Assembly: GCA_034189125.1 (NCBI GenBank)
Contig: JAXHVB010000068.1
Coordinates: 1 to 62,563 of the forward strand
From: Pseudomonadota bacterium
Lineage (GTDB): Bacteria; Pseudomonadota; Gammaproteobacteria; Pseudomonadales; UBA5862
DNA: 62,563 nucleotides
Direction: 5' to 3'
Within the stretch, counting starts at the first letter, position 1. Every line of letters starts with the position of its first letter. Made by a program: the position numbers and the translations under genes. A model generated the notes under the pieces. It saw only the letters and a program-made list of their open reading frames with translations. It was not told the origin of the DNA and searched no databases. Shown in pieces: positions 23,439-62,563 of this stretch.

Positions 23439-23444
23439 GGTCGC

Positions 23445-24401: not shown

Positions 24402-24515
24402 GGCGCTACCTGAATCCTTTGGCGCGCCGGCGCGCGCGGGAGAGCGAAAGCCTGACATTCTCGCCGATGCATCCGGCGTGCCGCAACTCAGGGGGCGGGC
24501 GCGCCCGCAATGCGC

Positions 24516-43386: not shown

Positions 43387-47481
<4,095 letters not shown>

Positions 47482-49373: not shown

Positions 49374-50048
49374 ATGGCGATCAAGGACTGGCCGAAACTG
49401 GAACGGCCGAGAGAAAAACTGCTGGCGCGCGGCGCTCATGCACTTTCCGACTCGGAGCTGCTGGCGATTTTCCTGCGCACTGGACTGCCTGGCCGCAGTG
49501 CAGTGGACCTGGCCAGAGAGTTGCTCGCCGAGTATGGCGGATTGCGGGCGCTGTTGGCCGCCGATGAACGCACGTTTTGCCGGGGGCCCGGCCTCGGCGC
49601 TGCCAAGTACGCGCAGTTGCAGGCGTGCCTTGAAATGGCGCGGCGCCACCTGGGTGAGCAACTGCAACGGGGTGACGTGCTCGAAAACCCAGACGCCACC
49701 TGTGCGTACTTGAGTGCTCACCTGCGTCACCGCAACCAGGAAGTGTTTGCAGTGTTGTTTCTGAACAACCGCCACCAGGTGCTGGCGTTCGAAGAATTGT
49801 TTTTCGGGACCATTGATGGCGCAGCGGTGCACCCGCGGGAGCTGGTTCGCAGGTCGCTGCACCACAACGCCGCGGCGGTGATCGCGGCCCACAACCATCC
49901 TTCGGGCGTCGCCGAACCCAGCCGTGCCGACCGTGACATCACTGCACGGCTCAAGGCCGCCCTGGCGTTGGTTGATGTGCGCCTGCTGGACCACCTGGTG
50001 ATTGGCGAGGGCGCCCCGTACTCTTTCGCTTCCCATGGACTGTTGTAG
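49374..50048 (+). CDS. radC: RadC-family (JAMM-like) protein
   Basis: The internal ATG gives [37 protein letters not shown]... and [15 protein letters not shown]. Confidence 0.9.
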
Positions 50049-50080
50049 CGCTGAATGGTCCGCAACCGCATGTTTGGCAT

Positions 50081-50109
50081 TGAGAAACCGAGCCGTCTCT
50101 GGTATAAAG
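50081..50109 (+). promoter_or_regulatory. candidate sigma70 promoter for rpmB-rpmG
   Basis: TTGAGA (50081-50086), a 17-nt spacer ending in TGg, then TATAAA (50104-50109). This predicts a leader of about 160 nt before rpmB. Confidence 0.5.
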
Positions 50110-50278
50110 CTGCGCCTTTCGGTTCAAGGGCGACGCCCTGCTGATTGCGGCTGTGGGGGCGCGGTGAGGTGCAGCGCGTCCCTTATAAAGCAGATCGGGT
50201 GCGCGGGGCGAGCCCGTACGGAATGGGGTCGCGGGCCCTCAACGTCAGGTACGCGCTGAGGCGCAGAGGTGAACAAGC

Positions 50279-50515
50279 ATGTCTAAAGTCTGTCAAGTGA
50301 CCGGCAAGCGGCCGGTTACGGGAAACAACGTTTCCCACGCCAACAACAAAACCAAGCGGCGTTTCATGCCCAATCTTCAGTACCACAGGTTTTGGGTGGA
50401 GTCGGAGAAGCGCTTCGTGCGGCTGCGTATCTCCACCAAGGGGATGCGAGTCATCGACAAACGCGGCATCGACACGGTGCTGGCGGATTTGCGTGCTCGG
50501 GGCGAAAAGGTCTAG
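50279..50515 (+). CDS. rpmB: 50S ribosomal protein L28
   Basis: [34 protein letters not shown].... Confidence 0.97.
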
Positions 50516-50554
50516 TTCGTATTCACCGAAGGATTGCGAAGATAGGGGCACATC

Positions 50555-50710
50555 ATGCGAGACAAGATTCGATTGGTATCGAGCGCTGGAACCGGTCATT
50601 TTTATACGACCAGCAAAAACAAGCGCACCATGCCGGAAAAGATGGAGATCAAAAAGTTCGACCCAGTGGCGCGCAAGCACGTCCTGTATAAGGAAGCCAA
50701 GATCAAGTAG
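50555..50710 (+). CDS. rpmG: 50S ribosomal protein L33 (51 aa, below the ORF-track length cutoff)
   Basis: Hand translation: [51 protein letters not shown], near-identical to E. coli L33. Confidence 0.95.
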
Positions 50711-50734
50711 TGGCCGTGGCTGGCGCTCGGCGCC

Positions 50735-50762
50735 AAAAAGCCCCGCTTCGGCGGGGTTTTTT
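50735..50762 (+). terminator. Rho-independent terminator after rpmG
   Basis: AAAAAGCCCCGC-TTCG-GCGGGGTTTTTT: GC stem with a UUCG tetraloop and T-tract. A second small hairpin TGGCGC-TCG-GCGCCA lies at 50721-50735. Confidence 0.75.
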
Positions 50763-50830
50763 GTGTCTGTTCCTTTGGGATGCTCGGTGTGCTTGCCCGA
50801 ATGCCTTGACGGGGCCGAGACATCCTCTGC

Positions 50831-52393
50831 ATGCTTTGCGCTGCGCGCGAGCGCCACAATGATATTTGTTCACAGCTGCGAGCGCTTTTGACCCACCGCC
50901 CCACACCCCGAACTTGCGCGCCGCATTGCCACCGACCACAGTTGTCGTGGATTGTCGGGGTTCTGCTGCTGGCCGCGGCGGTGGTTGTTCCCCACGCCCA
51001 AGCGGGACCTTGGATCGCGCCAGGCAACCCGCAGCTGCGCCATCACCTCCAACTCCTGGCCGACCACGGATACCTTAAGATTCCCCTCACCACCTGGCCC
51101 CTTGCCTGGGGCGACGTGATGGGTGCCATGCGCCGCCCCGGACCTGATGCAACGCCGGCCGTGCATGCTGCGTTTCGAGCGGTCACCCGGTCGGCGCGCG
51201 CTGCCAAGCGTGGTGGGCTGGATCGCAAACTAAAGCTGCAAGCGGCGTCGACCGCACCTTTGTACCGTGACTTTGGCCAAGGCGCCCGTGAGCAGTTTGA
51301 ATCCCAGGCGGAGCTTGAAGTGACTGGCAACCGCTGGGCGGCGCGCCTTTCGGTGACCGCGGTGGCGGACCCATCCGACGATGAGGCGGTGCGGCTGGAT
51401 GGTTCCTATATTGGCGCAGCGTTGGGGAACTGGATGGTCGTGGCCGGCGCGATGGACCGCTGGTGGGGGCCGGCGTGGGAAGGGGGTGCCATACTGGGCC
51501 ACAATGCGCGGCCCGTGCCTGCCGTGGTTATCCAGCGCAACCGGTCGGAGGCGTTCGAGCTGCCGGTGCTGCGCTGGTTCGGGCCATGGACCATGACACT
51601 CTTCAATGGCTGGCTTGAAGAGGACCGGGACTACTCGCGGGTGATGCTCTTTGGCATGCGAGTCGCTTTCAAGCCTACCCAGTACCTTGAAGTGGGGCTT
51701 TCGCGCACCGCGCAATGGGGTGGCGAGGGTCGGCCCGACGGCCTGGACACCGCGGTCGACATGTTGCTCGGGCGCGACAATTTTGGTGATGGGGACATCA
51801 CCATCACCAACCAGCCGGGCAACCAGCTTGCCGGCGGAGACGTTCGGCTGGCCTCCCCATGGCCCGCGGTGCCCGCAGCCATCTATGCTGAGGTCATTGG
51901 TGAGGACGAGGCGGGCTCCTTGCCATCGCGCTACTTGTTTACTTCCGGCATCGAGACCTGGGGGGCGTGGAGTGAGCAGGTGCCGTTTCGGTTCGTACTT
52001 GAATACAACAAGACGCGCGCCAGCGGCCACTACGACTATGCCTACAACCACCATGTGTACACGGATGGGTACCGCCACTATGGACGGTCCATGGGCCATG
52101 GCGCCGACAACGATGCAGAGCTGATTTCGGCCCACCTGAACCTGTTTGGGGCTTGGGGCTCCCGCACCGGTTTGCGCCTGGTGGCAGGGGAGTTGAACGA
52201 AAACGGGGTCGGCCAGCACGGATTTCTGAATGGCGCCGCGGACTTGCGAATGATCGAGCTGCAACAGTCCTGGACGCTGCGCGGCGCAGAGTTGGCCGTG
52301 CAGCTGGGCTGGACCGAGTTGACCGGAGCCGAGGTGCGGTCTGATTTCGAGGATGGCTTGCGGGTCGCGACCCGCTGGAGCCGGTTTTGGTAA
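50831..52393 (+). CDS. wzi: capsule assembly protein Wzi (outer-membrane)
   Basis: GPWIAPGNPQLRHHLQLLADHGYLKIPLTTWPLAWGDV is the characteristic Wzi N-terminal block. The C-terminus ends in aromatic ...RWSRFW. The true start is uncertain: 37 aa precede the signal peptide, and in-frame TTG codons at 50888 and 50942 are alternatives. Confidence 0.75.
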   Translation: MLCAARERHNDICSQLRALLTHRPTPRTCAPHCHRPQLSWIVGVLLLAAAVVVPHAQAGPWIAPGNPQLRHHLQLLADHGYLKIPLTTWPLAWGDVMGAMRRPGPDATPAVHAAFRAVTRSARAAKRGGLDRKLKLQAASTAPLYRDFGQGAREQFESQAELEVTGNRWAARLSVTAVADPSDDEAVRLDGSYIGAALGNWMVVAGAMDRWWGPAWEGGAILGHNARPVPAVVIQRNRSEAFELPVLRWFGPWTMTLFNGWLEEDRDYSRVMLFGMRVAFKPTQYLEVGLSRTAQWGGEGRPDGLDTAVDMLLGRDNFGDGDITITNQPGNQLAGGDVRLASPWPAVPAAIYAEVIGEDEAGSLPSRYLFTSGIETWGAWSEQVPFRFVLEYNKTRASGHYDYAYNHHVYTDGYRHYGRSMGHGADNDAELISAHLNLFGAWGSRTGLRLVAGELNENGVGQHGFLNGAADLRMIELQQSWTLRGAELAVQLGWTELTGAEVRSDFEDGLRVATRWSRFW

Positions 52394-52512
52394 CGCGGTC
52401 CCCTGGCCGCTGGATTCACAGAGTTGAGGAGCCTGAGCGCTTGCGTCCTTTCCCGTTTCGGCCTTGGTTGGGCTTGCTAGAACCCATGCATGGGCTGGCC
52501 AGAGTGCGCCTG

Positions 52513-55215
52513 ATGCGCCGGCGTTCGATGGTGTTGGGCGTGGTGGGCCTGGTGTTCGCCGCTTCCACCTGGGCGGTAGACCCGAGGTTGGAGCTGTTCC
52601 AGGGGTTGAGCGATGCGCAGCGTGCTGCCTTGCTCGAGGAATTTGGCGGCAACGGCAGTGGCGCCAATCGGCCACTGAGCTTCCCGGATGTGGTGCAGCG
52701 CGATTCCGAAGCTGACGCAGACCTGCAAGAAGTGGAGGACGTCGACGCGCCACCGCGATTCGCGCCGGGCGACAGCCTGCTGCTCTCGGTCTCGGAAACT
52801 CGCCCGGCCGACGCTGACCCTGAAGTGGTTGCCGACCGCGGCAGGGTTCCAGCACAGGGTCCCGCGCGCCTGCTGCTCGGGGAGCAGGTGTTGGAGCTTT
52901 CCGATTCCGGCACATTGGAGCTTCCGGGCTTTGAACCTGTGGTGCTGGCGGGGCTCACCGAGGCCCAGGCGGCGCGGCGCCTGCGGGCTGAGCCTGGGCT
53001 CGCCGGGCTTTACATTGGCATCGAAATACTGCCGGTCGCGCCCACCGGGGCGGAGGCGCTGGAGCCGTTTGGCTACGGCCTCTTCGCTGGCGCACCGACC
53101 ACCTTCGCACCGGCCACGGACATCCCGGTACCGGTCGACTATGTGATCGGGCCCGGTGACACCATCCTGTTGCAACTGTACGGCAACGAGAACCGCCTCG
53201 ACGAGTTGGTGGTGGGGAGAGACGGGCAAATCATGGTGCCCGACATTGGCCCCAAAACCGTCGCGGGCTTGAGCTTTGCCGCGTTGAGAGAGGAGCTTTC
53301 CCGCTGGATCGGGGAGCAAATGATCGGGGTGCAAACTTCGGTGACCTTGGGCGAACTGCGCTCGATTCGGGTGTTTGTGGTGGGCGACGCGGCCAACCCC
53401 GGCCCGTATACGGTGAGCAGCCTTTCCACCCTGACCCACGCCCTGTTTGTGGCCGGGGGGGTCGCCAAGAACGGTTCGCTGCGGTCGATTGAACTGCGCC
53501 GGCAGGGGGCGCTGGTCACCCGTTTTGACCTGTACGACCTGCTGCTGCGGGGCAACAGCGCGCAAGACGTGCGCCTGCAGCCTGGCGATGTGGTGCTGGT
53601 ACCGCCCGTGGGGCCGACCGTGGCCGTCTCTGGAGAAGTGCGTCGGCCGGCCATCTACGAATTGGGCGCAGAAGAAAACCTGCAGGGGGTGCTGGCGCTC
53701 GCGGGTGGGCTGCAGGCCAGGGCGGACACCAGTGCAATCCAGCTGCGCCGCATCGCTGGGCCGCGCCCGCAGCTACAAACCCTGGACTGGGCAGCCGCAG
53801 CCGGATTGTCACCGCAGGATGGCGACGCGGTGCACGTGCCTGCCGGATATCCACTGAAAGACGGCTACGTGGTCCTGCGCGGGCACGTGGAGCGTCCCAT
53901 CCAACGGGGCTGGTGGCCCGGGATGCGCCTTGTGGACCTGGTGAAGGATCCGGCCATTTTGCGCCCGGGCGCCGACATGGGCTACGTGCTGGTCCAGCGC
54001 TACCACCCCCCCAACGACCGCATCGAGGTCCTTGCGGCGCGGCTCGACCAGGCGCTGACCGCACCCGCGTCTAAGCACAACATTGCGCTGCAGTCCCGGG
54101 ACGAGGTGCTGGTGTTCGGCAACGAGAGCGACAGGCCATCCCTCGTTGCGCCACTCGTTGAACGGCTGCGCGAACAAGCAACCCAAGCAGCGCCCCAGCC
54201 GGTGGTTCAGGTGTCTGGCCCGGTTCGCTACCCAGGGTTCTATCCGTTGGCAACCGGCATGGACGTTGCGGGCTTGATTCGGGCCGCTGGAGGGCTCGCT
54301 GAATCGGCTTTTCCTGCTGCGGCGGAGTTGATTCATTACGAGGTCGCAGGGGGCGAGCGCCGCGAAGTCCGGCGCGATGAAGTGGATTTGCGCAGCCAAC
54401 TCACCGGGGGCATTGCGCCCGTGTTGCTGCGGCCTTTCGATGTGCTGGCGGTCAAGCAGGTGCCCGACTGGGGCGAGCAAGGAACGGTTCAGGTTTCAGG
54501 TGAGCTGGTGTTCCCGGGGACCTACGCGGTGAAAGAAGGTGAAACCCTTTCGCAGTTGGTCGAGCGGGCCGGTGGACTCACCGACCAGGCTTTCCCGCAA
54601 GGTGCGGTGTTTCTGCGTGTTGCGCTCAAGGCGCGCGAACAGGCGCAGATTGACCGGCTGCGTGACCAGTTGCGCACCGACCTTGCGGCAGCCGCGCTTG
54701 AGGGCGCGCAGCAGATTGATGCGAGCCCCGAGTCCTTTGCCATGTTGCAATCCCTGTTGCAGCAACTGGAAACACTGGAGGCGGCAGGCCGGTTGGTGAT
54801 CGACCTGCCTGCGGTGCTCGCGGGTCATGCCACCGACGTGGTGTTGAAGCCGGGTGACCGCCTGGTGGTGCCTGATCAACCGCAGTCGGTAACCGTGGTG
54901 GGCGAGGTGAACCACCCCACATCCCACTTGTTTGATGCCAACCTGGAACAGGGAGACTACATCGATCATTCGGGGGGGTTCACTTACAAGGCGGATCAAT
55001 CCCGCGTGTATGTGGTGAAGGCCAATGGCCAGGTGGAAACTCAGGGTGGCAGCCGCTGGTTTGCGACCACCCCCGTCATCGAGGCGGGCGACACCGTTGT
55101 GGTGCCGCTGGACGTGGACCGCATGCGGCCCATCACCCTGTGGGCCAATGTCACCCAGATCATGTACCAGCTTGGGCTGACAGTGGCCGCCTTCAACGCC
55201 GTGGGCGCGTTCTGA
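52513..55215 (+). CDS. outer-membrane polysaccharide export (OPX/Wza-family) protein, ~900 aa with multiple SLBB domains
   Basis: Signal MRRRSMVLGVVGLVFAASTWA (no lipobox Cys). Poly_export block GPGDTILLQLYGNENRLDELVVGRDGQIMVPDIGPKTVAGLS. Repeated soluble-ligand-binding beta-grasp-like units (GDVVLVP, GDRLVVP, GDTVVVP). The start is chosen among ATG 52486, 52513 and 52528. Confidence 0.8.
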   Translation: MRRRSMVLGVVGLVFAASTWAVDPRLELFQGLSDAQRAALLEEFGGNGSGANRPLSFPDVVQRDSEADADLQEVEDVDAPPRFAPGDSLLLSVSETRPADADPEVVADRGRVPAQGPARLLLGEQVLELSDSGTLELPGFEPVVLAGLTEAQAARRLRAEPGLAGLYIGIEILPVAPTGAEALEPFGYGLFAGAPTTFAPATDIPVPVDYVIGPGDTILLQLYGNENRLDELVVGRDGQIMVPDIGPKTVAGLSFAALREELSRWIGEQMIGVQTSVTLGELRSIRVFVVGDAANPGPYTVSSLSTLTHALFVAGGVAKNGSLRSIELRRQGALVTRFDLYDLLLRGNSAQDVRLQPGDVVLVPPVGPTVAVSGEVRRPAIYELGAEENLQGVLALAGGLQARADTSAIQLRRIAGPRPQLQTLDWAAAAGLSPQDGDAVHVPAGYPLKDGYVVLRGHVERPIQRGWWPGMRLVDLVKDPAILRPGADMGYVLVQRYHPPNDRIEVLAARLDQALTAPASKHNIALQSRDEVLVFGNESDRPSLVAPLVERLREQATQAAPQPVVQVSGPVRYPGFYPLATGMDVAGLIRAAGGLAESAFPAAAELIHYEVAGGERREVRRDEVDLRSQLTGGIAPVLLRPFDVLAVKQVPDWGEQGTVQVSGELVFPGTYAVKEGETLSQLVERAGGLTDQAFPQGAVFLRVALKAREQAQIDRLRDQLRTDLAAAALEGAQQIDASPESFAMLQSLLQQLETLEAAGRLVIDLPAVLAGHATDVVLKPGDRLVVPDQPQSVTVVGEVNHPTSHLFDANLEQGDYIDHSGGFTYKADQSRVYVVKANGQVETQGGSRWFATTPVIEAGDTVVVPLDVDRMRPITLWANVTQIMYQLGLTVAAFNAVGAF

Positions 55216-55248
55216 CGTGGTCCGGTTGGCAGTGAGGAAGCACCGCGA

Positions 55249-56205
55249 ATGACGCAAGACCCATCCACACCGCCCCGTGATGCGCCCGCCCCGACAGCCG
55301 GCTGGCCGGCGTACCCCCCACCGTACCTGCTGCCGGACGATGATGAAGAAGTCAGCCTGGGTGAGCTGGCGCGGTGGTTGTGGCGGCGCAAGTGGCTCAT
55401 TGGCGCCTGCTCTTTTGTCGGGGCGGTGCTCGCCGTGGTGCTGGTTTTGGTGACCGAACCGGTCTACCGAGTCGAGACACTGCTGGCGCCGATGCAGGCT
55501 GAGGAAGGCGGCACGCTCTCCCAGCTCGCAGGGCAGTTTGGCGGGTTGGCATCCATGGCGGGGATCAGCCTCGGGTCTGGGGGGGGCGGCGACACGGAAG
55601 TGGCGCTTGCACTGTTGCAATCCCACCAGTTTCTTGAGCGCTTCCTGCGCGAGCGCGCGCTGCTGCCGGCGCTGTTCGAAGAGGATTGGGACGCAGACGC
55701 GGGCGCCTGGCGGCTCGAAAACGAGGGCGATAAACCCCCGACTTACCGGCGCGGGGTACAGCGGTTTAGGAAGCACCTGCTCAGCGTGCGGCAGGACATC
55801 GACAGCGGCCTGGTTACTGTTGCCGTCGAATGGACCGACCGCGAGCAGGCGGCCGACTGGATCAGCGACCTGGTCCAGCGTGTCAACGAGGCCATGCGTG
55901 CGCGCGCGATCGCGGATGCGACCAGCAGCCTTGACTATTTGAATGCCCAACTGGAGCAGACCAGCGTGGTCGGCGTGCGCCAGGCCATCTACAGCCTGAT
56001 GGAAAGCCAAACCCAGGCGTTGATGCTGGCCCAGGTGCGTGACCAATATACATTCGAGGTCATTGATCCGCCGGCCATCCCCAGTGACGACGAAAAAATT
56101 CGGCCGAAAGGCGTTTTCAGCCTCGTGCTTGGTCTTCTTTGTGGGTTTTTATTCAGCATAGTGGTCGCTTACGTGATGGATCTATCACGGGGTTGCGATG
56201 ATTAA
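55249..56205 (+). CDS. polysaccharide co-polymerase (Wzz/PCP) without tyrosine-kinase domain
   Basis: TM1 LIGACSFVGAVLAVVLVLV with the Wzz block EPVYRVETLLAP, a central coiled region, the Pro-rich PCP motif IDPPAIPSDDEKIRPKG, then TM2 at the C-terminus. 318 aa, no Walker motifs. Confidence 0.8.
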   Translation: MTQDPSTPPRDAPAPTAGWPAYPPPYLLPDDDEEVSLGELARWLWRRKWLIGACSFVGAVLAVVLVLVTEPVYRVETLLAPMQAEEGGTLSQLAGQFGGLASMAGISLGSGGGGDTEVALALLQSHQFLERFLRERALLPALFEEDWDADAGAWRLENEGDKPPTYRRGVQRFRKHLLSVRQDIDSGLVTVAVEWTDREQAADWISDLVQRVNEAMRARAIADATSSLDYLNAQLEQTSVVGVRQAIYSLMESQTQALMLAQVRDQYTFEVIDPPAIPSDDEKIRPKGVFSLVLGLLCGFLFSIVVAYVMDLSRGCDD

Positions 56206-56277
56206 TGGGATGCTGGAAAACAAATGTCCCAATCGGAGCGACCCAAACGCTCTAAACGTGGAAAAGGAGTAAGTACC

Positions 56278-57492
56278 GTGAAAACGTTGATCCTTGGAGG
56301 TGACGGGTTTTGTGGCTGGCCCACAGCGCTGCACTTGTCGAGCTTGGGGCACGAGGTGGCCATCGTAGACAACCTTTCACGCCGCAAGATCGACATTGAG
56401 CTGGAATGTGAGTCCTTGACGCCCATCCGCCCGATCGGTGATCGGCTGCGCGCTTGGAAGGAGGTTTCCGGTCGCGATATCGCCTTCCACGATTTCAGTG
56501 TGGCCGTGAACTACCAGCGCTTACTGGACCTGCTGAAGGATTGGCGACCGAATGCCATCGTGCACTTCGCTGAGCAGCGCGCGGCGCCCTATTCCATGAA
56601 ATCGAGCCACCACAAGCGCTACACAGTGGACAACAATCTGAATGCGACCAACAACGTACTCGCCGCCGTGGTTGAAAGTGGACAAGACATTCACATTGCT
56701 CACCTCGGCACCATGGGGGTATATGGTTACGGCACTGCTGGAATGAAGATCCCTGAAGGCTATCTGCAGGTCAAAGTAGAAGCCGGTGACGGCCAGCTGG
56801 TGGACAATGAGATTCTCTACCCGGCGAACCCCGGCAGCATCTATCACATGACAAAGACCCAAGATCAGCTGTTGTTTTTTTTCTACAATAAAAACGACAG
56901 AGTTCGCATCACCGACCTGCATCAAGGCATTGTATGGGGCACTCAAACCGCTGAAACCAAGCGGGATGAGCGCCTAATCAACCGCTTCGACTACGATGGT
57001 GATTACGGGACGGTCCTTAACCGTTTCCTGATGCAGGCTGCCGTGGGCCATCCGCTCACCGTGCATGGAACAGGCGGGCAGACGAGAGCGTTTATTCACA
57101 TTCAGGACACCGTCCGCTGCATACAGATCGCCCTGGAAAATGCGCCCAAGCCGGGTGATCGCGTGCAGATTTTTAACCAAATGACTGAAACCCATCGGGT
57201 GCGCGACCTTGCCCAAATGATCGCCGATCGCACCGGCGCTCAAATCGATTATGTTTCCAACCCGCGCAACGAAGCCGACGAAAACGACCTGCACGTCCGC
57301 AACGACCGCTTCCTTTCCCTGGGACTGGAGCCCATCACCCTCGGCGCAGGATTGATGGAGGAGGTCACAGACATCGCCCGCAAGTACGCCCACCGTTGCG
57401 ACCACGGCAAGATCCCGTGCGTATCGCTTTGGCGACAGACCGGCCAAGCCGCGCAAGCACCGGCAGGATCGCGCGACGGGTCAGGAGCCTGA
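56278..57492 (+). CDS. sqdB: UDP-sulfoquinovose synthase (SqdB/SQD1-type SDR)
   Basis: ILGGDGFCGWPTALHLS..HEVAIVDNL.RR, VHFAEQRAAPYSM, LGTMGVYGYG, PANPGSIYHMTKTQD and ITDLHQGIVWG track cyanobacterial/plant SqdB/SQD1 along the whole length. GTG 56278 has AAGGAG 8 nt upstream. The ORF-track ATG 56224 would add 18 basic residues. Confidence 0.8.
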   Translation: MKTLILGGDGFCGWPTALHLSSLGHEVAIVDNLSRRKIDIELECESLTPIRPIGDRLRAWKEVSGRDIAFHDFSVAVNYQRLLDLLKDWRPNAIVHFAEQRAAPYSMKSSHHKRYTVDNNLNATNNVLAAVVESGQDIHIAHLGTMGVYGYGTAGMKIPEGYLQVKVEAGDGQLVDNEILYPANPGSIYHMTKTQDQLLFFFYNKNDRVRITDLHQGIVWGTQTAETKRDERLINRFDYDGDYGTVLNRFLMQAAVGHPLTVHGTGGQTRAFIHIQDTVRCIQIALENAPKPGDRVQIFNQMTETHRVRDLAQMIADRTGAQIDYVSNPRNEADENDLHVRNDRFLSLGLEPITLGAGLMEEVTDIARKYAHRCDHGKIPCVSLWRQTGQAAQAPAGSRDGSGA

Positions 57493-57645
57493 TTATTGAC
57501 AAGGCCGCCTAGCGAAACGCTGCTGGGCGGATGCGTCGCTGTCACTGGCCGGACACGCCGCGTGCAAGCACATCGGGGCTGAGGAGTTTGAACAGTCCAC
57601 GAGCGCTTGGCAGGTGCGCTGGATGGTCGAAAGGAATTCTTGCCC

Positions 57646-58941
57646 ATGGCGCGTAAGAGCGCATTCATCACCCTTGGCACCCAGGTCGGCATTCAGTCGA
57701 TCGGCCTCGTCACGGGGATTCTGGTCGCACGTTTCCTCGGGCCGGAGGGCCGGGGCGAATTGGCCGCGGTTGTCGTGTGGGTATCGATGATTGCCTATCT
57801 CGGCAACCTTGGCTTGCCAGCCGCCAGCGCCTACGCGGCGGCGCGCGACGCCGGTCGCGTCCGTACCCTGATGGGCAACGGCTTTGTTGCGGTGCTGGTG
57901 CAATGGCCGCTACTGGCTGGGGTGGGCCTGCTTGTGCTTTATCTGGCGCTGGACGGCTACACGGACCTCCTACAGCAGCTGGCGGTTGCTTATCTCTGCC
58001 TCTATATCCCACTGAATTTGTTGACGCTTTACGCCAATGCAACCCAGCAGGGTTTGGGCCACTATGCCCGCTTCAATGCCGTGCGCTTGTGTGTGCCTGT
58101 CAGCTATCTGGTCGGGCTCGGCATGCTGGTGTGGCTGGAGCAGTTCACGGTGGCAGGTGTGCTCGCCGCGAATCTGTTCAGCAACTTTGTAACGCTGTTG
58201 TTGGCCTTGGGTTTGCTGCTGCCACGTGCGCGGGTGGCGACGCGCCGACGGTGGATCGATCTGCCGGCGCTGAGGCGGGATCTTCGCTATGGCTTATCAG
58301 CCCATATCGGCATGTTGCAGCCCTTCACCGGTCTGCAGGTCGATGTCCTGCTGCTGACACTGCTCCTGCCTGCCCATGACCTTGGTCTCTACATGGCCGC
58401 GCTGGCCGGTGCCGGTTTGATTCGTGCCCAGGGCGTTGCATTGGGGATGGTCGCAATGCCGGAGGTCGCCCGGCAAAAAGAAAGCGCTGGCCAGTTCCGG
58501 ACGGTTGTGCGCTTTGCGAGCTTTGCCGCTTTGTTCGGTGGCGCAACCGCCCTTTTTTTGGCCTGGTGGGCACAACCGCTTGTTGCACTGGCCTATGGCG
58601 ATGCATTCAGCGGTGCGGCCAGCGCCTTGCGCCTGCTCGCCTTGGGTGCGCTGACCGCCTCGCTTAACCGTGTCCTCGCCGATGGCCTTCGCGGTATGGG
58701 GCGACCGCTCAGTGGCACCGCCGCCGAACTGGCCAGTCTTGCCGTGGGCGTGCCCGCCATCCTGGTGCTGGCGCCGTCCGGCGGCGCCGAAGGGGCCTCC
58801 TTGGCCACTGTACTAGCCTCCGCTAGCGCACTGGCCATCACCGCTTGGTCGTTGTACCGGCGGCGGGCGGCTGGCACCGACCCGGCCGCGCTATCGGTCA
58901 CCGCGCGGCCCTTGATTGCAAAACAGACAGATCGTCCATGA
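57646..58941 (+). CDS. wzx: oligosaccharide flippase (Wzx, MOP superfamily)
   Basis: Polytopic 431-aa membrane protein. N-terminus LVTGILVARFLGPEGRGELAAV is typical of polysaccharide biosynthesis flippases. ATG 57646 with an AAGGA RBS. Confidence 0.8.
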   Translation: MARKSAFITLGTQVGIQSIGLVTGILVARFLGPEGRGELAAVVVWVSMIAYLGNLGLPAASAYAAARDAGRVRTLMGNGFVAVLVQWPLLAGVGLLVLYLALDGYTDLLQQLAVAYLCLYIPLNLLTLYANATQQGLGHYARFNAVRLCVPVSYLVGLGMLVWLEQFTVAGVLAANLFSNFVTLLLALGLLLPRARVATRRRWIDLPALRRDLRYGLSAHIGMLQPFTGLQVDVLLLTLLLPAHDLGLYMAALAGAGLIRAQGVALGMVAMPEVARQKESAGQFRTVVRFASFAALFGGATALFLAWWAQPLVALAYGDAFSGAASALRLLALGALTASLNRVLADGLRGMGRPLSGTAAELASLAVGVPAILVLAPSGGAEGASLATVLASASALAITAWSLYRRRAAGTDPAALSVTARPLIAKQTDRP

Positions 58942-60407
58942 GATCGAACGTGGCGCCAGCAGCTGCCGCAGCCTACATCGCTGTGCTTGGCTTACTTTTC
59001 GTTTTCATTCTATATGTGGCTGGTATTTCCGTGCGCTTCCTGCTGCTTGCTGCAATTGTTGGCAGTCTGATTCTGCCGGTGATGCTGCGGGCCATCCGAG
59101 GCCGTCTGGATCTGTTAGAACCCGTCGTTCTGGCCAACGTTGCGCTCAGTATCATGTTCGTCGGCCGTCCGCTGCACCAACTGATCGCCGAGGAGACGAT
59201 CCACCTGGGGTACGACATTTCGCTCACCTTCAACGAAGCCTTGCTGGTTGCGCTAACCGGCATCTTTTGTTTCCAACTGGGCTACTTCCTCCGCCCCAAT
59301 GTCACCGCCTGGGCCCGGCGCTTGCCCGCGCCTCCCCCCCTGCGACCACAGCGAGCGGCTTTTGCAGGCTGGTTTTATCTGTTGCTGGGCGGGCTGTTGT
59401 TCGGCGCTTTCCTGGCCCAACAGGGCGGGCTGGGGTTGCTCGTCGTTCTGCTTGCCGGCCGCCAGCAATCCAACAACGATTTGTTTCTCGGCTCTACCGG
59501 TTATCTGTACAACGGTATCTTGATGTGGGGCGCGAGCGCATTGATCTTCTTTGTTATAGCGACTGTCGCGCGCCGTCGCCTTTATTGGCTGTGGTTTCTG
59601 CTGCCCGCCCTCTGCCTAGTGATTTTCTACGGCGCCCGAGGCACTCGATCCATGCTGCTCCCATTGGTGCTGGCCATCCCGGTTTTCTGGTATCTATGGA
59701 ACAATCGCCGGCCGGGTGCGCGGAGCTTGCTGCTCGCCGCCTTTGTTGGCGTGGCGCTGCTGGGCGCGCTCCGTGAGGTCCGAACCGTTGGGGAAAACCG
59801 GGATTTTGCCGGTACCTTGCTCGCCGCTCTGGGTTCGCCGGTCAGTGAGGCTTTGAATATCCTGGGTGGCGCGGATGCCGAGATGTTTGACTCTTTAGCC
59901 AGCGAACTGTTGGTGGTCCCGGAACGCACCCCTTTTCAGCACGGCGCGACCATCACCGACGTGTTGATCCGCGCTGTACCTCGCCCGCTGTGGCCCGACA
60001 AACCACTGGAATCGAACGATGCGATCGTCACTGCCCTTTGGCCGGATCATTACGCCGTGTCCCGGGCCTCGCCGGCCTTCTCTGTGCTTGGTCCCTTCTA
60101 TGCCGATAGCGGCCTCTTTACCGTTGCGCTGGGCATGTTTTCCATTGGCTGGGTGCTCGCCTTGTCTTGGCGCTGGCTGTGCCTCCACCGCGCTCAGCCG
60201 GTGGCCCAGATGATCTACGCCATGGGTCTGCCCTTCGTGGTCATCCTGATGCGGGGCACCATACCCGGCACCTTGACCCGCATGCTGTTTCTGTTTGTCC
60301 CGCTGGTGTTGCTCATGTGGTTGACGCGCCTGAGATTTAGAGCCCGACTTCGACCCGAGCGAATCTATCAGGGGCCCCAACTCAGTGAAGGACGTCACTC
60401 GAAATGA
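58938..60407 (+). CDS. O-antigen/EPS repeat-unit polymerase-like membrane protein (Wzy-like)
   Basis: About 11-12 TM helices with a large loop (RGTRSMLLPLVL...). The ATG overlaps the wzx stop (ATGA). The family call rests on topology and context. Confidence 0.65.
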   Translation: MRSNVAPAAAAAYIAVLGLLFVFILYVAGISVRFLLLAAIVGSLILPVMLRAIRGRLDLLEPVVLANVALSIMFVGRPLHQLIAEETIHLGYDISLTFNEALLVALTGIFCFQLGYFLRPNVTAWARRLPAPPPLRPQRAAFAGWFYLLLGGLLFGAFLAQQGGLGLLVVLLAGRQQSNNDLFLGSTGYLYNGILMWGASALIFFVIATVARRRLYWLWFLLPALCLVIFYGARGTRSMLLPLVLAIPVFWYLWNNRRPGARSLLLAAFVGVALLGALREVRTVGENRDFAGTLLAALGSPVSEALNILGGADAEMFDSLASELLVVPERTPFQHGATITDVLIRAVPRPLWPDKPLESNDAIVTALWPDHYAVSRASPAFSVLGPFYADSGLFTVALGMFSIGWVLALSWRWLCLHRAQPVAQMIYAMGLPFVVILMRGTIPGTLTRMLFLFVPLVLLMWLTRLRFRARLRPERIYQGPQLSEGRHSK

Positions 60408-61657
60408 TCTTAGCAGTCAATAGTTCGTCCAACGCGCTCAACTACATTTCGGCGGGACTTGCCGAAACGGGATTGCTTTCGACTTACGTGCGCCCGTATG
60501 TGAATCTCGATCGGCGTTGGGAAACGGTCTTGGCGGGATTGCCTGGTTTAGGCCAAACCTATGCCCGCACCTTTGGCCGGCGGCGGATGCCCGCCCCGCT
60601 GGACAAGACACACGTCAGCGAAGCCGGGATGCTGTGGGATTTGCTGATGGCTGCACACGGCCGGCTGCCGGCATCCAGTCCAGCATACCGGCCGCTACAG
60701 CGCTCGCTACTGCACGCGCGTACCCGGGCGCTGATGAAGGCGGCAGAGAGGCATTTTCAAAACGAGCCCACCGTGGTGGCGAGCTGGGGCTGCGCGGAGC
60801 CGGTTTTTCGCAAGGCGGAGGCGCGGGGGGCGCTGTGTGTGCTCAACTACCCGCTGGCCCACCACCGCTTCACAAGGCGCTACTTGGAGGACGAGGCGGC
60901 GCGGCAACCCGCGTTTGCCGAAACACTCAACAGCCATGACCGGCCAGGGTGGCAGGAGCGGCAACTGGATGCCGAGATCGAACTGGCCGATCGCATCCTG
61001 GTCGGTTCGAGCTTCGCGCGCGATTCCTTCATCGCGGAAGGGGTTCCCGCGCAGAAGCTGACGGTGATTCCCTATGGCGCCGATACGGAACTGTTCGAGC
61101 CGCCTGGGCGGAAAGCGCACGATTGCGGCGGGCTGAAGCTGCTGTTCGTTGGCCAGATCGGTCAGCGCAAGGGCATTTCCTACCTGCTGGATGCAGCGCG
61201 CCAGACGGCGGTGCAGGGTGACAGTCTGACCCTGGTCGGCCAGATTCAGGGCAGTGGCCGGGCGCTGGCGCCGTACCGCGATGGTTTTCGCCATCGCCCC
61301 CATGTGCCCCGCGCCGAGCTGCGGGCAATCTATCGCCAGGCGGACGTGTTCGTCTTTCCCACGTTGGTGGAAGGCTTGGGGCTGGTGGTGCTGGAGGCCA
61401 TGGCCAGCGGCCTGCCCGTGATCACCACACCCAATGGCCCCGGCGACATCGTGCGCGACGGGGTGGACGGCTTTCTGGTGCCCCCGCGGGATGTTGATGC
61501 CATTGTCGATCGGCTGGAGCGGCTGCGCGTGGATCCGCAATTGCGTCGCGAGATGGGGCGCAGTGCTAGGGAACGGGCATCGGAGTTTACTTGGCGAGCT
61601 TATCGGGAACAGGTCGTCGGATGGTTGCGGCAATGGACAGAGGAATGCGAGAGATGA
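60404..61657 (+). CDS. glycosyltransferase family 4 (GT-B, retaining)
   Basis: LLFVGQIGQRKGISYLLDA, VFVFPTLVEGLGLVVLEAMASGLPVITTPNGPGDIV.DGVDGFLVP (EX7E region). The ATG overlaps the upstream stop (ATGA). Confidence 0.9.
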   Translation: MILAVNSSSNALNYISAGLAETGLLSTYVRPYVNLDRRWETVLAGLPGLGQTYARTFGRRRMPAPLDKTHVSEAGMLWDLLMAAHGRLPASSPAYRPLQRSLLHARTRALMKAAERHFQNEPTVVASWGCAEPVFRKAEARGALCVLNYPLAHHRFTRRYLEDEAARQPAFAETLNSHDRPGWQERQLDAEIELADRILVGSSFARDSFIAEGVPAQKLTVIPYGADTELFEPPGRKAHDCGGLKLLFVGQIGQRKGISYLLDAARQTAVQGDSLTLVGQIQGSGRALAPYRDGFRHRPHVPRAELRAIYRQADVFVFPTLVEGLGLVVLEAMASGLPVITTPNGPGDIVRDGVDGFLVPPRDVDAIVDRLERLRVDPQLRREMGRSARERASEFTWRAYREQVVGWLRQWTEECER

Positions 61658-62331
61658 TGTTTCTTGAAAAACTCGTCAGGGCAGACGAATTGCGCCCCAG
61701 CCGGCTCCACACGCAAGCTGGCGAATTCTGCGGCTGGGGACAGCTCCCTAGGTTGTTGCCGTCGGCGTGGACTTGGTTAAATTTTCGGCTAACCGGACAT
61801 AGAGCCGTTGCGCCATGGTGGACCTGGGAGGCGATCAGGTTTGTTGAAAAAGAAGTGCGGAAAACCGACCGCATCCTGGAAGCCGGGGCGGGGTATTCAT
61901 CGCTATGGTTGGCCGAGCGCTGCCGAGCGATTCGGTCGATCGAAAGCTTAGCAGCCTGGAACCGGCGTCTTCGCTCGGAGGCAGCCGCACGGGGGCTGTT
62001 GAACCTCGAGATTGTCGAGGCTCAGGATACATCTGCCGCCTTTGCCCGCATGATGACAGAAGCAATCGCCGATGGTGAACCGTATGATGTGGTGGTCATC
62101 GATTCAGCGGGTGATCGAACCAGCATGTTCCGGATGCTCGGGGAGGTCGCGTTGACTATAGCGCCGAGGTTGATTGTCTATGACAACACCGACCGTATCG
62201 ATGATCGAAGCGCGGTGTCGGCGTTCCAAAATCCCTCTTACCAAAAGCACCTGTTCCGGGGCTTCGGTCCGCAACTGGTTCACGCCTGGGAGACGACGGT
62301 CTTGCTGAAACGCACGGATCAAAATGCCTGA
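61654..62331 (+). CDS. hypothetical protein, class I SAM-dependent methyltransferase-like fold (tentative)
   Basis: ILEAGAGYSSLWLA resembles SAM motif I, followed by an acidic VVVIDSAGDR block. The ATG overlaps the GT4 stop (ATGA). Confidence 0.45.
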   Translation: MMFLEKLVRADELRPSRLHTQAGEFCGWGQLPRLLPSAWTWLNFRLTGHRAVAPWWTWEAIRFVEKEVRKTDRILEAGAGYSSLWLAERCRAIRSIESLAAWNRRLRSEAAARGLLNLEIVEAQDTSAAFARMMTEAIADGEPYDVVVIDSAGDRTSMFRMLGEVALTIAPRLIVYDNTDRIDDRSAVSAFQNPSYQKHLFRGFGPQLVHAWETTVLLKRTDQNA

Positions 62332-62563
62332 AGTGAAGAAGAGGCCCCATGTCGTCTACTGGAACAACATCCCCGCGCCCTACATGGTCGAGCGCTTCAA
62401 TGCGCTGGCCGATCGCGACGCGTTCGAATTCGAGGCCTGGTTCAATGACCGCATCGAAGCCGACCGAAGCTGGGCGGTGGACGAAGCGGCGTGGCGGTTT
62501 CGACACCGCTATCTGCCCGCCACCCGCCTGTTTGGCCGCACCCGACACTGGCCGCTACCGGTG
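62324..62563 (+). CDS. probable glycosyltransferase, N-terminal 80 aa (3' end beyond the window)
   Basis: Hand translation: MPEVKKRPHVVYWNNIPAPYMVERFNALADRDAFEFEAWFNDRIEADRSWAVDE.... Open to the window edge, with an 8-nt overlap with the upstream gene. It resembles N-termini of EPS-cluster GT-B enzymes, judged by eye only. Confidence 0.45.
   Translation, partial: MPEVKKRPHVVYWNNIPAPYMVERFNALADRDAFEFEAWFNDRIEADRSWAVDEAAWRFRHRYLPATRLFGRTRHWPLPV

What the first reader, a model, noticed from the sequence alone, without database searches (positions are those of the whole stretch)
56278..57492. SqdB/SQD1-type UDP-sulfoquinovose synthase gene embedded in a Wzx/Wzy capsule/EPS export locus
**Enzyme evidence.** The 404-aa product has the GGDGFCGW Rossmann variant, LGTMGVYG, and the catalytic block YHMTK (Tyr-His-x-x-Lys). 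As far as I recall, the His next to the catalytic Tyr distinguishes SQD1/SqdB from ordinary YxxxK sugar epimerases and dehydratases. The protein can be aligned by eye with cyanobacterial SqdB over its full length.

**Context.** SqdB normally sits with sqdX/sqdD-type lipid glycosyltransferase genes and makes the membrane sulfolipid SQDG. Here it lies between a PCP/Wzz gene and wzx, a wzy-like gene, a GT4 gene, a methyltransferase-like gene and another glycosyltransferase gene. All are on one strand. Each of the downstream junctions from wzx through the methyltransferase-like gene is an ATGA start/stop overlap (the last junction is an 8-nt overlap). The block lies downstream of wzi and an OPX exporter.

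**Inference.** This context predicts a sulfonated sugar (sulfoquinovose) in a Wzy-polymerised surface polysaccharide. I know sulfoquinovose in glycans only from archaeal (Sulfolobus) N-glycans, not as a described feature of bacterial Wzy-dependent capsules.

**Alternative.** The GT4 at 60404 could be an SqdX-like SQDG synthase, making the pair a lipid pathway that merely sits in the locus.
Basis: partly seen in the sequence, partly recalled or inferred. Interest (0 to 1): 0.7.

Follow-up and report, generated by a model that had tools for sequence, protein, structure and literature searches.

The report
Sulfosugar synthase gene in capsule locus
A gene for the enzyme that makes the sulfur-bearing sugar sulfoquinovose, best known from a photosynthetic membrane lipid, sits inside a bacterial capsule-building gene cluster; the same pairing recurs in many unrelated bacteria, which predicts a sulfonated surface polysaccharide that I could not find described.

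Summary
Window 56278-57492(+) encodes a 404-aa protein that aligns end to end with Arabidopsis SQD1 (E 1.6e-95). It keeps every residue tested as functionally important. It is 70-89% identical to several hundred bacterial SqdB proteins, cyanobacterial ones included.

About 37 of its 120 best homologues are fused to a bona fide APS/PAPS reductase, the enzyme that makes sulfite. This is strong independent evidence that the clade uses sulfite.

The gene lies in a one-strand locus: wzi, OPX, PCP, sqdB, wzx, wzy, GT4, small ORF, GT4. A 99.8%-identical contig continues it with an FkbM methyltransferase and a further GT4.

The association is not an accident of this genome. Every locus I examined from the window's SqdB clade places sqdB among polysaccharide genes. 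These include Methylococcus, Salinisphaera, Algiphilus, Rhodanobacter, Nocardioidaceae and metagenomic contigs. Loci with a lipid-type (SqdX-like) GT4 directly after sqdB form a separate clade.

Two caveats apply. The same wzx-wzy-GT module also occurs without an adjacent sqdB, so sqdB behaves as a variable cassette. The sulfoquinovosyl transferase cannot be assigned.

No paper in the searchable library describes sulfoquinovose in a bacterial polysaccharide. Verdict: a well-supported prediction and a new variant of known kinds, still chemically unproven.

The parts
50734..50763 (+). Strong stem-loop terminator (13-bp stem followed by a T run) that closes the upstream unit and marks the left edge of the polysaccharide locus
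50831..52393 (+). wzi (outer-membrane capsule assembly protein)
   Evidence: Pfam PF14052 Caps_assemb_Wzi, E 3.4e-77
52387..55215 (+). Large OPX/Wza-type outer-membrane polysaccharide exporter (942 aa from the TTG; the true start is uncertain)
   Evidence: Poly_export E 1.9e-20, SLBB with five stretches, SLBB_2, weak GfcC_N; NCBIfam EpsE/PEP-CTERM export families below their cut-offs
55249..56205 (+). PCP/Wzz-type co-polymerase without a kinase domain (318 aa)
   Evidence: Wzz E 5e-12, GNVR E 7.8e-6; two hydrophobic segments at residues 50-68 and 292-310
56278..57492 (+). sqdB: UDP-sulfoquinovose synthase orthologue (404 aa). GC 0.55 against 0.61-0.68 for the locus genes upstream of it
57493..57645 (+). 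153-nt spacer between sqdB and wzx. Within the sqdB-to-GT4 run this is the only junction that is not an overlap
   Evidence: no Rfam match
57646..58941 (+). wzx flippase (431 aa)
   Evidence: Polysacc_synt E 1.4e-11 and Polysacc_synt_3; the same 431-aa product is called on contig L129; 50% identity to the Salinisphaera wzx that also follows sqdB
58938..60407 (+). wzy polymerase (489 aa)
   Evidence: TIGR04370 E 9e-6, below cut-off; homologues at 45-69% identity carry PF14296 O-ag_pol_Wzy and some are named Wzy or repeat-unit polymerase; about 10 hydrophobic segments with a long loop at residues 280-390
60404..61657 (+). GT4 glycosyltransferase 'GT4a' (417 aa)
   Evidence: Glycos_transf_1 E 5e-29; 57% identity to Salinisphaera and 82/72/66/65% to the L090/L132/L108/L133 counterparts
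61654..62331 (+). 225-aa soluble ORF of uncertain function, weakly class-I methyltransferase-like
   Evidence: Methyltransf_24 E 0.009; L090 homologue E 6.9e-6; conserved in L132 (62%) and L108 (60%)
62324..62563 (+). 5' part of a second GT4 ('gtC'), cut by the window end
   Evidence: 89% and 77% identity to the L005 and L003 GT4s; the full 380-aa gene, then an FkbM methyltransferase and a third GT4, are seen on the 99.8%-identical contig L129

Best explanation
The gene encodes a genuine UDP-sulfoquinovose synthase (SqdB). It converts UDP-glucose plus sulfite, from assimilatory sulfate reduction, into UDP-sulfoquinovose. In this organism the nucleotide sugar most likely feeds the surrounding Wzx/Wzy-dependent pathway.

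The proposed route is as follows. One of the locus's GT4 enzymes adds sulfoquinovose to an undecaprenyl-diphosphate-linked repeat unit. Wzx flips the unit, and Wzy polymerises it under PCP control. OPX exports the polymer and Wzi holds it on the surface. The result is a capsule or EPS bearing a permanently anionic C-S sulfonate, possibly O-methylated by the FkbM enzyme just beyond the window.

Shown: the enzyme family, the conserved residues, the locus architecture, and the recurrence of the association. Inferred: enzyme activity, which GT uses UDP-sulfoquinovose, and the presence of sulfoquinovose in the polymer.
For: **Enzyme.**
- Full-length phmmer match to the SQD1 structures 1qrr/1i24 (E 1.6e-95); the next PDB hit is at 2e-14.
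- Best NCBIfam family is UDP-sulfoquinovose synthase, E 4.7e-100.
- In a 90-sequence alignment these are invariant: GGDGxCGW, H and R of HFxEQR, T-M of GTMG, and S-x-Y-H-x-x-K. They correspond to SQD1 Thr145/Tyr182/Lys186 and to Agl3 residues whose Ala mutants are inactive (PMC4388408).
- 72-75% identity to cyanobacterial SqdB from Limnospira and a Xenococcaceae member.

**Sulfite link.**
- About 37 of the 120 best homologues (80-89% identity) carry an N-terminal PF01507 domain.
- In L005 that domain passes the curated cut-offs for phosphoadenylyl-sulfate reductase (249.7 vs 154) and thioredoxin-dependent APS reductase (241.1 vs 235.3). It has the ECGLH motif and the CC...CxxC cysteines.
- A separate reductase gene, or an APS kinase gene, lies next to sqdB in other loci.

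**Context in the window.** One strand, translationally coupled wzx-wzy-GT4-ORF-GT4, preceded by wzi-OPX-PCP.

**Recurrence.**
- sqdB is followed directly by wzx in Methylococcus, Salinisphaera, L087, L088 and L090.
- It lies among Wzc/OPX/Bac_transf/GT/methyltransferase/sulfotransferase genes in Algiphilus, L005, L007 and L009.
- It lies among GT2/Glf/acyltransferase-3/ABC exporter genes in Rhodanobacter.
- In an NJ tree these loci group with the window. Loci with an adjacent SqdX-like GT4 form another clade.
- Among loci fetched through the conserved GT4 'gtC', about half of those with at least 8 kb of upstream flank contain sqdB.
Against: - There is no chemical evidence.
- The same wzx-wzy-GT4a-ORF-gtC(-FkbM-GT4) module occurs without an adjacent sqdB. 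L108 has OPX-PCP-wzx with a 119-nt spacer. The same holds for L132 (72-79% identity, IS element upstream of wzx), L133 and L134. The glycosyltransferases therefore do not obviously depend on sqdB, and no GT can be assigned as the sulfoquinovosyl transferase.
- sqdB has lower GC (0.55) than its neighbours and is the only gene in the run flanked by spacers. That fits a recently acquired cassette.
- No sulfite-supplying gene and no initiating phosphoglycosyl transferase lie in the window.
- NF041015's curated cut-off is not reached (335 vs 575).
- Only 62.5 kb of the genome is visible, so an SqdX or SqdD gene elsewhere cannot be excluded.
- The tree is neighbour-joining without support values.
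Confidence: 0.65

Rival explanations
1. Lipid pathway that merely sits in the locus. SqdB supplies UDP-sulfoquinovose to an SQDG synthase that makes the membrane sulfolipid, for example as a phosphate-sparing lipid. The synthase would be one of the GT4s here, or an SqdX/SqdD encoded elsewhere.
For: All characterised bacterial SqdB enzymes serve SQDG synthesis (reviews read). GT4 is the family of SqdX/SQD2. The window protein is 72-75% identical to cyanobacterial SqdB. The wzx-wzy-GT module can exist without sqdB.
Against: - The GT4s of the locus are 29-36% identical, over the C-terminal half only, to the 381-aa GT4s that directly follow sqdB in L074/L077/L079/L085. Those are 65-68% identical to one another, and their best NCBIfam hits are lipid glycosyltransferases.
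- GT4a, gtC and the third GT4 are conserved in position across Wzx loci.
- No GT8 (SqdD-type) domain was found in the locus genes.
- sqdB-wzx adjacency recurs across distant taxa.
- From memory, not tested: Methylococcus, Salinisphaera and Nocardioides are not reported to contain SQDG.
Confidence: 0.12
2. Passenger cassette. sqdB was recently inserted between PCP and wzx by horizontal transfer, and its product is not used by the glycosyltransferases of this locus. It would be unused, or serve another glycoconjugate such as LPS or a glycoprotein.
For: GC 0.55 against 0.61-0.68 for the locus genes upstream of it. Spacers lie on both sides of sqdB while the downstream genes overlap. L108 has the syntenic OPX-PCP-wzx arrangement with no sqdB. 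Toxin-antitoxin and IS genes cluster just upstream of sqdB or wzx in related loci.
Against: The protein is intact with all functional residues and a good Shine-Dalgarno sequence. The 85-88%-identical locus L090 keeps sqdB in the same place. Nucleotide-sugar genes in variable polysaccharide loci are typically cassettes of exactly this kind and are normally used by the locus (established knowledge of O-antigen and capsule loci).
Confidence: 0.1
3. Different chemistry. The enzyme makes something other than UDP-sulfoquinovose, for example a 4-epimeric sulfosugar (sulfofucose), or only the 4-keto-5,6-ene intermediate that another enzyme then uses.
For: NF041015's cut-off is not reached. Activity has never been measured for this clade. 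Rare sulfosugars such as sulfofucose exist with no known biosynthesis.
Against: 70-89% identity across a family that includes cyanobacterial SqdB, with an invariant active site. The fusion to APS reductase argues for sulfite addition. NF041015 is labelled an equivalog model, and the window protein matches 350 of its 384 positions.
Confidence: 0.06

Closest known systems
SQD1 (Arabidopsis) / SqdB (cyanobacteria, Rhodobacter, Sinorhizobium): UDP-sulfoquinovose synthase of the SQDG sulfolipid pathway
   Same: Same enzyme family. Full-length alignment to the SQD1 crystal-structure sequence, the same NAD-binding motif variant, and the same catalytic Thr/Tyr/His/Lys and Arg/His/Met residues. 72-75% identity to cyanobacterial homologues.
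   Different: The partner genes are not sqdX or sqdD/C/A but wzi, OPX, PCP, wzx, wzy and several GT4s. The predicted acceptor is a lipid-linked glycan rather than diacylglycerol. Close homologues are fused to APS/PAPS reductase; I found no description of such a fusion in the papers I could search.
Agl3 of Sulfolobus acidocaldarius (UDP-sulfoquinovose synthase for the N-glycan of S-layer and archaellum proteins)
   Same: A precedent for sulfoquinovose in a lipid-carrier-assembled surface glycan rather than in a lipid. The best NCBIfam hit is the Agl3-type model (E 4.7e-100).
   Different: Archaeal; the glycan is transferred to protein by AglB and is not polymerised by Wzy. The curated cut-off of that model is not met (335 vs 575). 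The window protein belongs to the bacterial SqdB family.
Group 1-type Wzx/Wzy capsule systems (E. coli K30 / Klebsiella: wzi-wza-wzb-wzc plus a variable region)
   Same: A wzi plus OPX plus PCP block, followed by a variable region with wzx, wzy, GTs and a nucleotide-sugar gene, all on one strand.
   Different: The PCP lacks the tyrosine-kinase domain, and no Wzb or kinase gene is in the window. The OPX is unusually large (942 aa, multiple SLBB domains). The nucleotide-sugar gene is sqdB.
Sulfated bacterial capsular/O-polysaccharides (e.g. Cobetia marina KMM 1449, Vibrio sp. KMM 8419)
   Same: Anionic, sulfur-bearing surface polysaccharides encoded by Wzx/Wzy-type loci (titles and abstracts seen).
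   Different: Those carry sulfate esters (C-O-S) added by PAPS-dependent sulfotransferases. Here the predicted group is a sulfonate (C-S) built into the nucleotide sugar before polymerisation. Some related loci (Algiphilus, L007, L009) carry both sqdB and a sulfotransferase.

Membership tests
UDP-sulfoquinovose synthase (SQD1/SqdB/Agl3, EC 3.13.1.1) | Extended SDR fold with an N-terminal GxxGxxG NAD-binding motif | tested here: met
   GGDGFCGW at residues 7-14; Pfam Epimerase E 1.3e-19; the motif is invariant in 90 sequences
UDP-sulfoquinovose synthase (SQD1/SqdB/Agl3, EC 3.13.1.1) | Full-length similarity to a characterised enzyme, well separated from other sugar-nucleotide SDRs | tested here: met
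   SQD1 1qrr E 1.6e-95 over residues 2-390; the next PDB family (UDP-glucuronate decarboxylase) is at 2e-14
UDP-sulfoquinovose synthase (SQD1/SqdB/Agl3, EC 3.13.1.1) | Catalytic Thr, Tyr-His-x-x-Lys, and the His/Arg/Met residues essential in Agl3 | tested here: met
   GTMG, SIYHMTK and HFAEQR align with SQD1 and are invariant; residue roles are taken from PMC4388408. The role of the His next to Tyr is from memory of Mulichak et al. 1999
UDP-sulfoquinovose synthase (SQD1/SqdB/Agl3, EC 3.13.1.1) | Curated equivalog score (NCBIfam NF041015, cut-off 575 bits) | tested here: not met
   335.2 bits. The APS-reductase fusion homologue in L005 also scores only 338.6. NCBI-sourced names for the close homologues are generic ('NAD-dependent epimerase/dehydratase family protein') while JGI calls them UDP-sulfoquinovose synthase. 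The cut-off is therefore missed by at least these two members and may be tuned to Agl3-type sequences; that last point is inference
UDP-sulfoquinovose synthase (SQD1/SqdB/Agl3, EC 3.13.1.1) | Use of sulfite as the sulfur donor | tested here: inconclusive
   Indirect only. About 37 of 120 close homologues are fused to an APS/PAPS reductase that passes its curated cut-offs. Activity was not measurable here
Wzx/Wzy-dependent capsule/EPS locus | Wzx flippase and Wzy polymerase | tested here: met
   Wzx: Polysacc_synt E 1.4e-11. Wzy: family members carry PF14296 and some are named Wzy or repeat-unit polymerase; the window protein itself reaches only TIGR04370 at 24.9 bits, below the cut-off of 40
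Wzx/Wzy-dependent capsule/EPS locus | PCP, OPX and Wzi export/assembly proteins | tested here: met
Wzx/Wzy-dependent capsule/EPS locus | Initiating phosphoglycosyl transferase, and (for group 1) a tyrosine kinase and phosphatase | tested here: not met
   None is present in the window part of the locus. The related locus L132 has Bac_transf and CpsB downstream, so they may lie beyond the window end
SQDG sulfolipid operon (sqdB-sqdX or sqdBDC) | An SqdX-type lipid GT4 or SqdD-type GT8 next to sqdB | tested here: not met
   The locus GT4s are 29-36% identical, over the C-terminal half, to the SqdX-like GT4s of L074/L077/L079/L085. No GT8 domain was found. Caveat: no experimentally defined SqdX sequence was available, so 'SqdX-like' is inferred from adjacency and from NCBIfam lipid-GT hits
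SQDG sulfolipid operon (sqdB-sqdX or sqdBDC) | SQDG present in the membrane lipids | not testable with these tools
   Needs lipid MS

The most novel reading that the evidence does not exclude
Many non-photosynthetic bacteria from several phyla (Gamma- and Alphaproteobacteria, Actinomycetota and others) build sulfoquinovose into exported surface polysaccharides. Some use dedicated APS reductase-SqdB fusion enzymes that would hand sulfite directly to the synthase. This would be an unrecognised class of C-sulfonated bacterial glycans. It would also be a source of sulfoquinovose in soils, sediments and dark waters that current sulfur-cycle budgets, which attribute sulfoquinovose to phototroph sulfolipid, do not count.
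Probability: 0.5. Interest if true: 0.8.

Novelty: new variant of a known kind. Interest (0 to 1): 0.65.

Why it matters
The reviews I read present sulfoquinovose as a product of phototrophs (the sulfolipid SQDG), and other papers report it in a few archaeal N-glycans. The ecology of sulfoquinovose-degrading bacteria is interpreted on that basis.

If bacterial capsules or EPS contain it, three things follow:
- There is a new chemical class of bacterial surface polymer, with a pH-independent, hydrolysis-resistant sulfonate charge.
- There is a non-phototrophic source of sulfoquinovose for sulfoglycolytic bacteria.
- The widespread, previously purposeless sqdB homologues of heterotrophs gain an explanation.

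NCBI-sourced names for these homologues are only the generic 'NAD-dependent epimerase/dehydratase'.

The prediction is directly testable. Cultured carriers exist: Methylococcus, Salinisphaera hydrothermalis, Rhodanobacter, Nocardioides and Isoptericola.

Tried and rejected
1. Looking up the 404-aa product by exact sequence found nothing. The public gene call probably uses another start. The GT4 at 60404 did work and gave contig L129.
2. My first neighbourhood survey used a crude GC3-based gene caller and single-linkage clustering. It was noisy in high-GC DNA and lost wzx. I replaced it with seed-based HMM searches of six-frame ORFs.
3. The first APS-reductase HMM was contaminated by the fused SqdB domain and gave 110 false hits. 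I redid it with domain coordinates. There is no reductase in the window.
4. I hypothesised that the strongly conserved GT4 'gtC' (77-89% identity) is the dedicated sulfoquinovosyl transferase. I rejected this as unproven, because gtC-FkbM-GT4 modules are common without sqdB nearby.
5. A search for the JUMPstart/ops element GGCGGTAG gave 3 hits, none upstream of the locus and not above chance.
6. The sigma-70 scan found no promoter in 49900-58000.
7. Rfam and tRNA scans of the window were empty.
8. Ten literature searches found no bacterial sulfoquinovose polysaccharide and no description of the reductase-SqdB fusion. Sulfoquinovose mentions in Salmonella 'O-antigen capsule' papers appeared, from listing counts and my own knowledge of the yih genes, to concern catabolic genes; I did not open those papers.
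9. I did not run a structure prediction. With about 50% identity to a solved structure it would add nothing.
Full report
**1. Observation**

Translation of 56278-57492(+) gives 404 aa with GGDGFCGW, LGTMGVYG and YHMTK. The GTG start is preceded by AAGGAG 8 nt upstream, and the N-terminus coincides with that of its homologues. An in-frame ATG at 56224 is less likely.

Family scans confirm the neighbours:
- wzi, 50831-52393 (PF14052, E 3.4e-77)
- a 942-aa OPX, 52387-55215 (Poly_export plus five SLBB stretches)
- a kinase-less PCP, 55249-56205 (Wzz, GNVR)
- wzx, 57646-58941
- a polytopic membrane protein, 58938-60407
- a GT4, 60404-61657
- a 225-aa ORF, 61654-62331
- the start of another GT4, 62324-62563

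The ATGA overlaps at 58938, 60404 and 61654 and the 8-nt overlap at 62324-62331 are in the sequence. A strong terminator at 50734-50763 closes the preceding unit. Public contig L129 is 99.8% identical to window 56727-62563 and carries identical gene calls. It continues the locus with the complete 380-aa GT4 ('gtC'), a 297-aa FkbM-family methyltransferase (TIGR01444, E 2e-26) and a third GT4 of 404 aa.

**2. The enzyme**

Against all PDB sequences, the only strong hits are the Arabidopsis SQD1 structures. The match is E 1.6e-95 over residues 2-390, and the next family is at 2e-14. The best NCBIfam family is UDP-sulfoquinovose synthase (E 4.7e-100). The score of 335 bits is below that equivalog model's cut-off of 575. 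A close homologue fused to APS reductase misses the cut-off equally (338.6 bits). NCBI-sourced names for the close homologues are generic, while JGI calls them UDP-sulfoquinovose synthase.

I aligned 89 bacterial relatives with SQD1. The NAD motif, the His and Arg of HFxEQR, the Thr-Met of GTMG and Ser-x-Tyr-His-x-x-Lys are invariant. These match SQD1 Thr145/Tyr182/Lys186 and the Agl3 residues whose alanine mutants are inactive (PMC4388408).

A scan of one genome per species found at least 596 relatives. The best 80 are 70-87% identical and come from Gamma- and Alphaproteobacteria, Actinomycetota, Bacillota, Deinococcota and Cyanobacteria. My own tblastn puts the two cyanobacterial loci (Limnospira and a Xenococcaceae member) at 72-75%. 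The protein is therefore an ordinary member of a very conserved bacterial SqdB family.

**3. Independent evidence for sulfite use**

Among the 120 best database homologues (80-89% identity), about 37 are 650-700-aa proteins with an N-terminal PF01507 domain. In L005 this domain passes the curated cut-offs for phosphoadenylyl-sulfate reductase and for thioredoxin-dependent APS reductase. It has the ECGLH motif and the Fe-S cysteines, and an Ala/Gly/Pro-rich linker joins it to an SqdB domain that begins MKILVLGGDGFCGW. Elsewhere the reductase is a separate adjacent gene (Nocardioides), or an APS kinase gene lies nearby (Salinisphaera). A sulfite-making enzyme fused to this SDR is hard to explain unless the SDR consumes sulfite.

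**4. Is the capsule context meaningful?**

I examined the neighbourhoods of the closest homologues:
- Methylococcus: sqdB-wzx-Wzy_C.
- Salinisphaera hydrothermalis: APS kinase ... LMW phosphatase-OPX-Wzc-sqdB-wzx-GT4-GT4-FkbM.
- Algiphilus: GfcC/YjbH/YjbF-Wzc-OPX-epimerase-Bac_transf-sqdB-methyltransferase-sulfotransferase-GT4-FkbM-wzx-....
- Metagenomic L005: NusG-like gene, then sqdB, then reductase::sqdB, FkbM x2, wzx, GT, membrane protein, GT4.
- L087: sqdB-wzx-...-GT4::FkbM fusion.
- L088: Wzc-Bac_transf-toxin/antitoxin genes-sqdB-wzx-Wzy_C.
- L090: an 85-88%-identical syntenic copy of the window's sqdB-wzx-wzy-GT4.
- Rhodanobacter: acyltransferase-3, methyltransferase, GT2, UDP-galactopyranose mutase, ABC exporter.
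- Nocardioidaceae: reductase (fused or adjacent), GT2/GT4, FkbM.

In a neighbour-joining tree rooted on SQD1, all these loci group with the window.

A different clade (L074, L077, L079, L085; near a cyanobacterial and two Bacillota sequences) has sqdB followed within 35 nt or less by a 381-aa GT4. Those GT4s are 65-68% identical to one another. Their best NCBIfam hits are lipid glycosyltransferases: GlcNAc-phosphatidylglycerol synthase and monoglucosyl-diacylglycerol synthase. I take these as SqdX-like. The window's GT4 at 60404 is only 29% identical to them, over its C-terminal half. It is 57% identical over its full length to the Salinisphaera GT4 and 65-82% to GT4s in the same position in L090, L132, L108 and L133.

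The membrane protein at 58938-60407 is a Wzy. Its homologues at 45-69% identity carry PF14296 and some are named O-antigen polymerase. It has about ten hydrophobic segments and a long loop.

**5. What weakens the inference**

The module wzx-wzy-GT4a-ORF-gtC(-FkbM-GT4) is found without an adjacent sqdB:
- L108 has OPX-PCP-wzx with only a 119-nt spacer (63-68% identity).
- L132 (72-79% identity) has an ISL3 transposase upstream of wzx and no sqdB within 3.3 kb.
- L133 and L134 also lack it.

Of 40 metagenomic loci fetched through gtC, 8 contain sqdB. Of the 12 with at least 8 kb of upstream flank, about 6 do.

In the window, sqdB has GC 0.55 against 0.61-0.68 for the locus genes upstream of it, and it is the only gene in the run bounded by spacers. 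sqdB thus behaves as a variable nucleotide-sugar cassette in a widespread family of Wzx/Wzy loci. That is normal for such loci, but it means no glycosyltransferase can be named as the sulfoquinovosyl transferase. I first suspected gtC and withdrew that.

The window holds no cysH, no initiating transferase and no tyrosine kinase. In L132 a Bac_transf gene and a CpsB phosphatase lie further downstream.

**6. Mechanism proposed**

Glucose-1-phosphate would be converted to UDP-glucose; a phosphomannomutase/phosphoglucomutase gene lies 3.3 kb upstream of wzi on the other strand. SqdB adds sulfite to give UDP-sulfoquinovose. A GT4 adds the sugar to an Und-PP-linked repeat unit. Wzx flips the unit, Wzy polymerises it with PCP, OPX exports it and Wzi retains it.

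Shown: gene identities, order, coupling and recurrence. Inferred: the activities, the acceptor and the final polymer. I put 0.65 on this. The rivals are:
- a lipid pathway, 0.12
- an unused or otherwise-used passenger cassette, 0.10
- different chemistry, 0.06

**7. Comparison with what is known, and novelty**

The enzyme is a member of a known family. The export machinery is a known kind. The combination is what is new.

Ten full-text searches found no report of sulfoquinovose in a bacterial polysaccharide and no description of the reductase-SqdB fusion. A 2025 preprint from a sulfoquinovose laboratory and a 2026 review introduce the sugar only as the head group of the SQDG sulfolipid; the review does not use the word 'polysaccharide' at all. 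The 2015 Agl3 paper documents sulfoquinovose in archaeal glycoproteins. It includes sqdB homologues of non-phototrophic bacteria in its tree without assigning them a role. One metagenomic paper lists SQD in a generic nucleotide-sugar scheme for cyanobacterial EPS.

The library lacks most subscription journals, so prior description cannot be excluded.

I rate this a new variant of a known kind, with interest 0.65. It is a broad, testable prediction with cultured carriers available, but it has no chemical proof yet.

**8. The organism**

The rest of the window is ordinary chromosome: uvrD/rep, TRAP transporters, zwf, edd, recG, spoT, argB, a PMM/PGM gene, dfp and radC. The best named relatives of its SpoT are only about 60% identical. 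It is therefore a gammaproteobacterium-like lineage without a close cultured relative.

Noticed in passing
L005:10001-12091 (P0004), and about 37 of the 120 best homologues: Natural fusion proteins: an N-terminal thioredoxin-type APS/PAPS reductase (ECGLH motif, Fe-S cysteines) joined by an Ala/Gly/Pro-rich linker to a full SqdB. This suggests sulfite channelling. I found no description of it in the searchable literature.
   Followed up: partly
L005:8684-12091: Two sqdB copies in tandem on one contig: a stand-alone 408-aa gene directly followed by the reductase-fused 696-aa gene. Both are 87-89% identical to the window protein.
   Followed up: no
L087:17611-19323: A 570-aa fusion of a GT4 glycosyltransferase with an FkbM (Methyltransf_21) methyltransferase. 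The same two functions are adjacent separate genes (gtC-FkbM) in the window's own locus continuation (L129), Salinisphaera, L132 and many metagenomic loci. This suggests a glycosyl-then-methyl step.
   Followed up: partly
window 56278-57492 versus its flanks: sqdB has clearly lower GC (0.55) than the locus genes upstream of it (0.61-0.68). It is bounded by 72-nt and 153-nt spacers, while the downstream genes overlap. This fits cassette-like acquisition.
   Followed up: partly
L088:4472-7163; L087:1996-2639; L005:16-7125; L090:2640-3098; L132:1056-2660: Toxin-antitoxin genes (PIN, PhdYeFM, HicA, MazE, BrnT/CopG) or an IS element accumulate just upstream of sqdB or wzx in related loci. That position is the junction between the conserved export genes and the variable region.
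   Followed up: no
window 44941-47481 (-): The phosphomannomutase/phosphoglucomutase ORF is 846 aa. The four PGM/PMM domains start only at residue 394, after a hydrophobic N-terminus and a Pro/Ala/Thr-rich stretch with no Pfam match. It may be an extended protein or an over-long ORF.
   Followed up: no
window 65-1297 (+): A 3' part of a sucrose-synthase-type gene (GT-B_Sucrose_synth, E 8.7e-82) lies at the left edge of the window. By my recollection this is uncommon in heterotrophic proteobacteria.
   Followed up: no
window 52387-55215 (+): The OPX exporter is unusually long (942 aa) with five SLBB stretches and a weak GfcC_N-like region. Its start codon is uncertain: TTG, with a 7-nt overlap with wzi.
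   Followed up: no
L040, L044, L047 (TPR-sulfotransferases on both sides of sqdB); L022, L023, L084 (rmlD-rmlA-Asp/Arg hydroxylase-sqdB): In alphaproteobacterial and other more distant SqdB loci the neighbours are again glycan-type genes: sulfotransferases or dTDP-rhamnose genes, rather than lipid glycosyltransferases.
   Followed up: partly
NCBI-sourced names for this SqdB clade are only 'NAD-dependent epimerase/dehydratase family protein'. Both clade members I scored against the one NCBIfam model for UDP-sulfoquinovose synthase (NF041015, cut-off 575) reach about 335-339 bits. The family is therefore easy to overlook in genome annotations.
   Followed up: partly
window 22017-24458 (-): An adjacent pair: an AAA ATPase (MoxR-like) and a VWA CoxE-like protein. 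It is unrelated to the finding.
   Followed up: no
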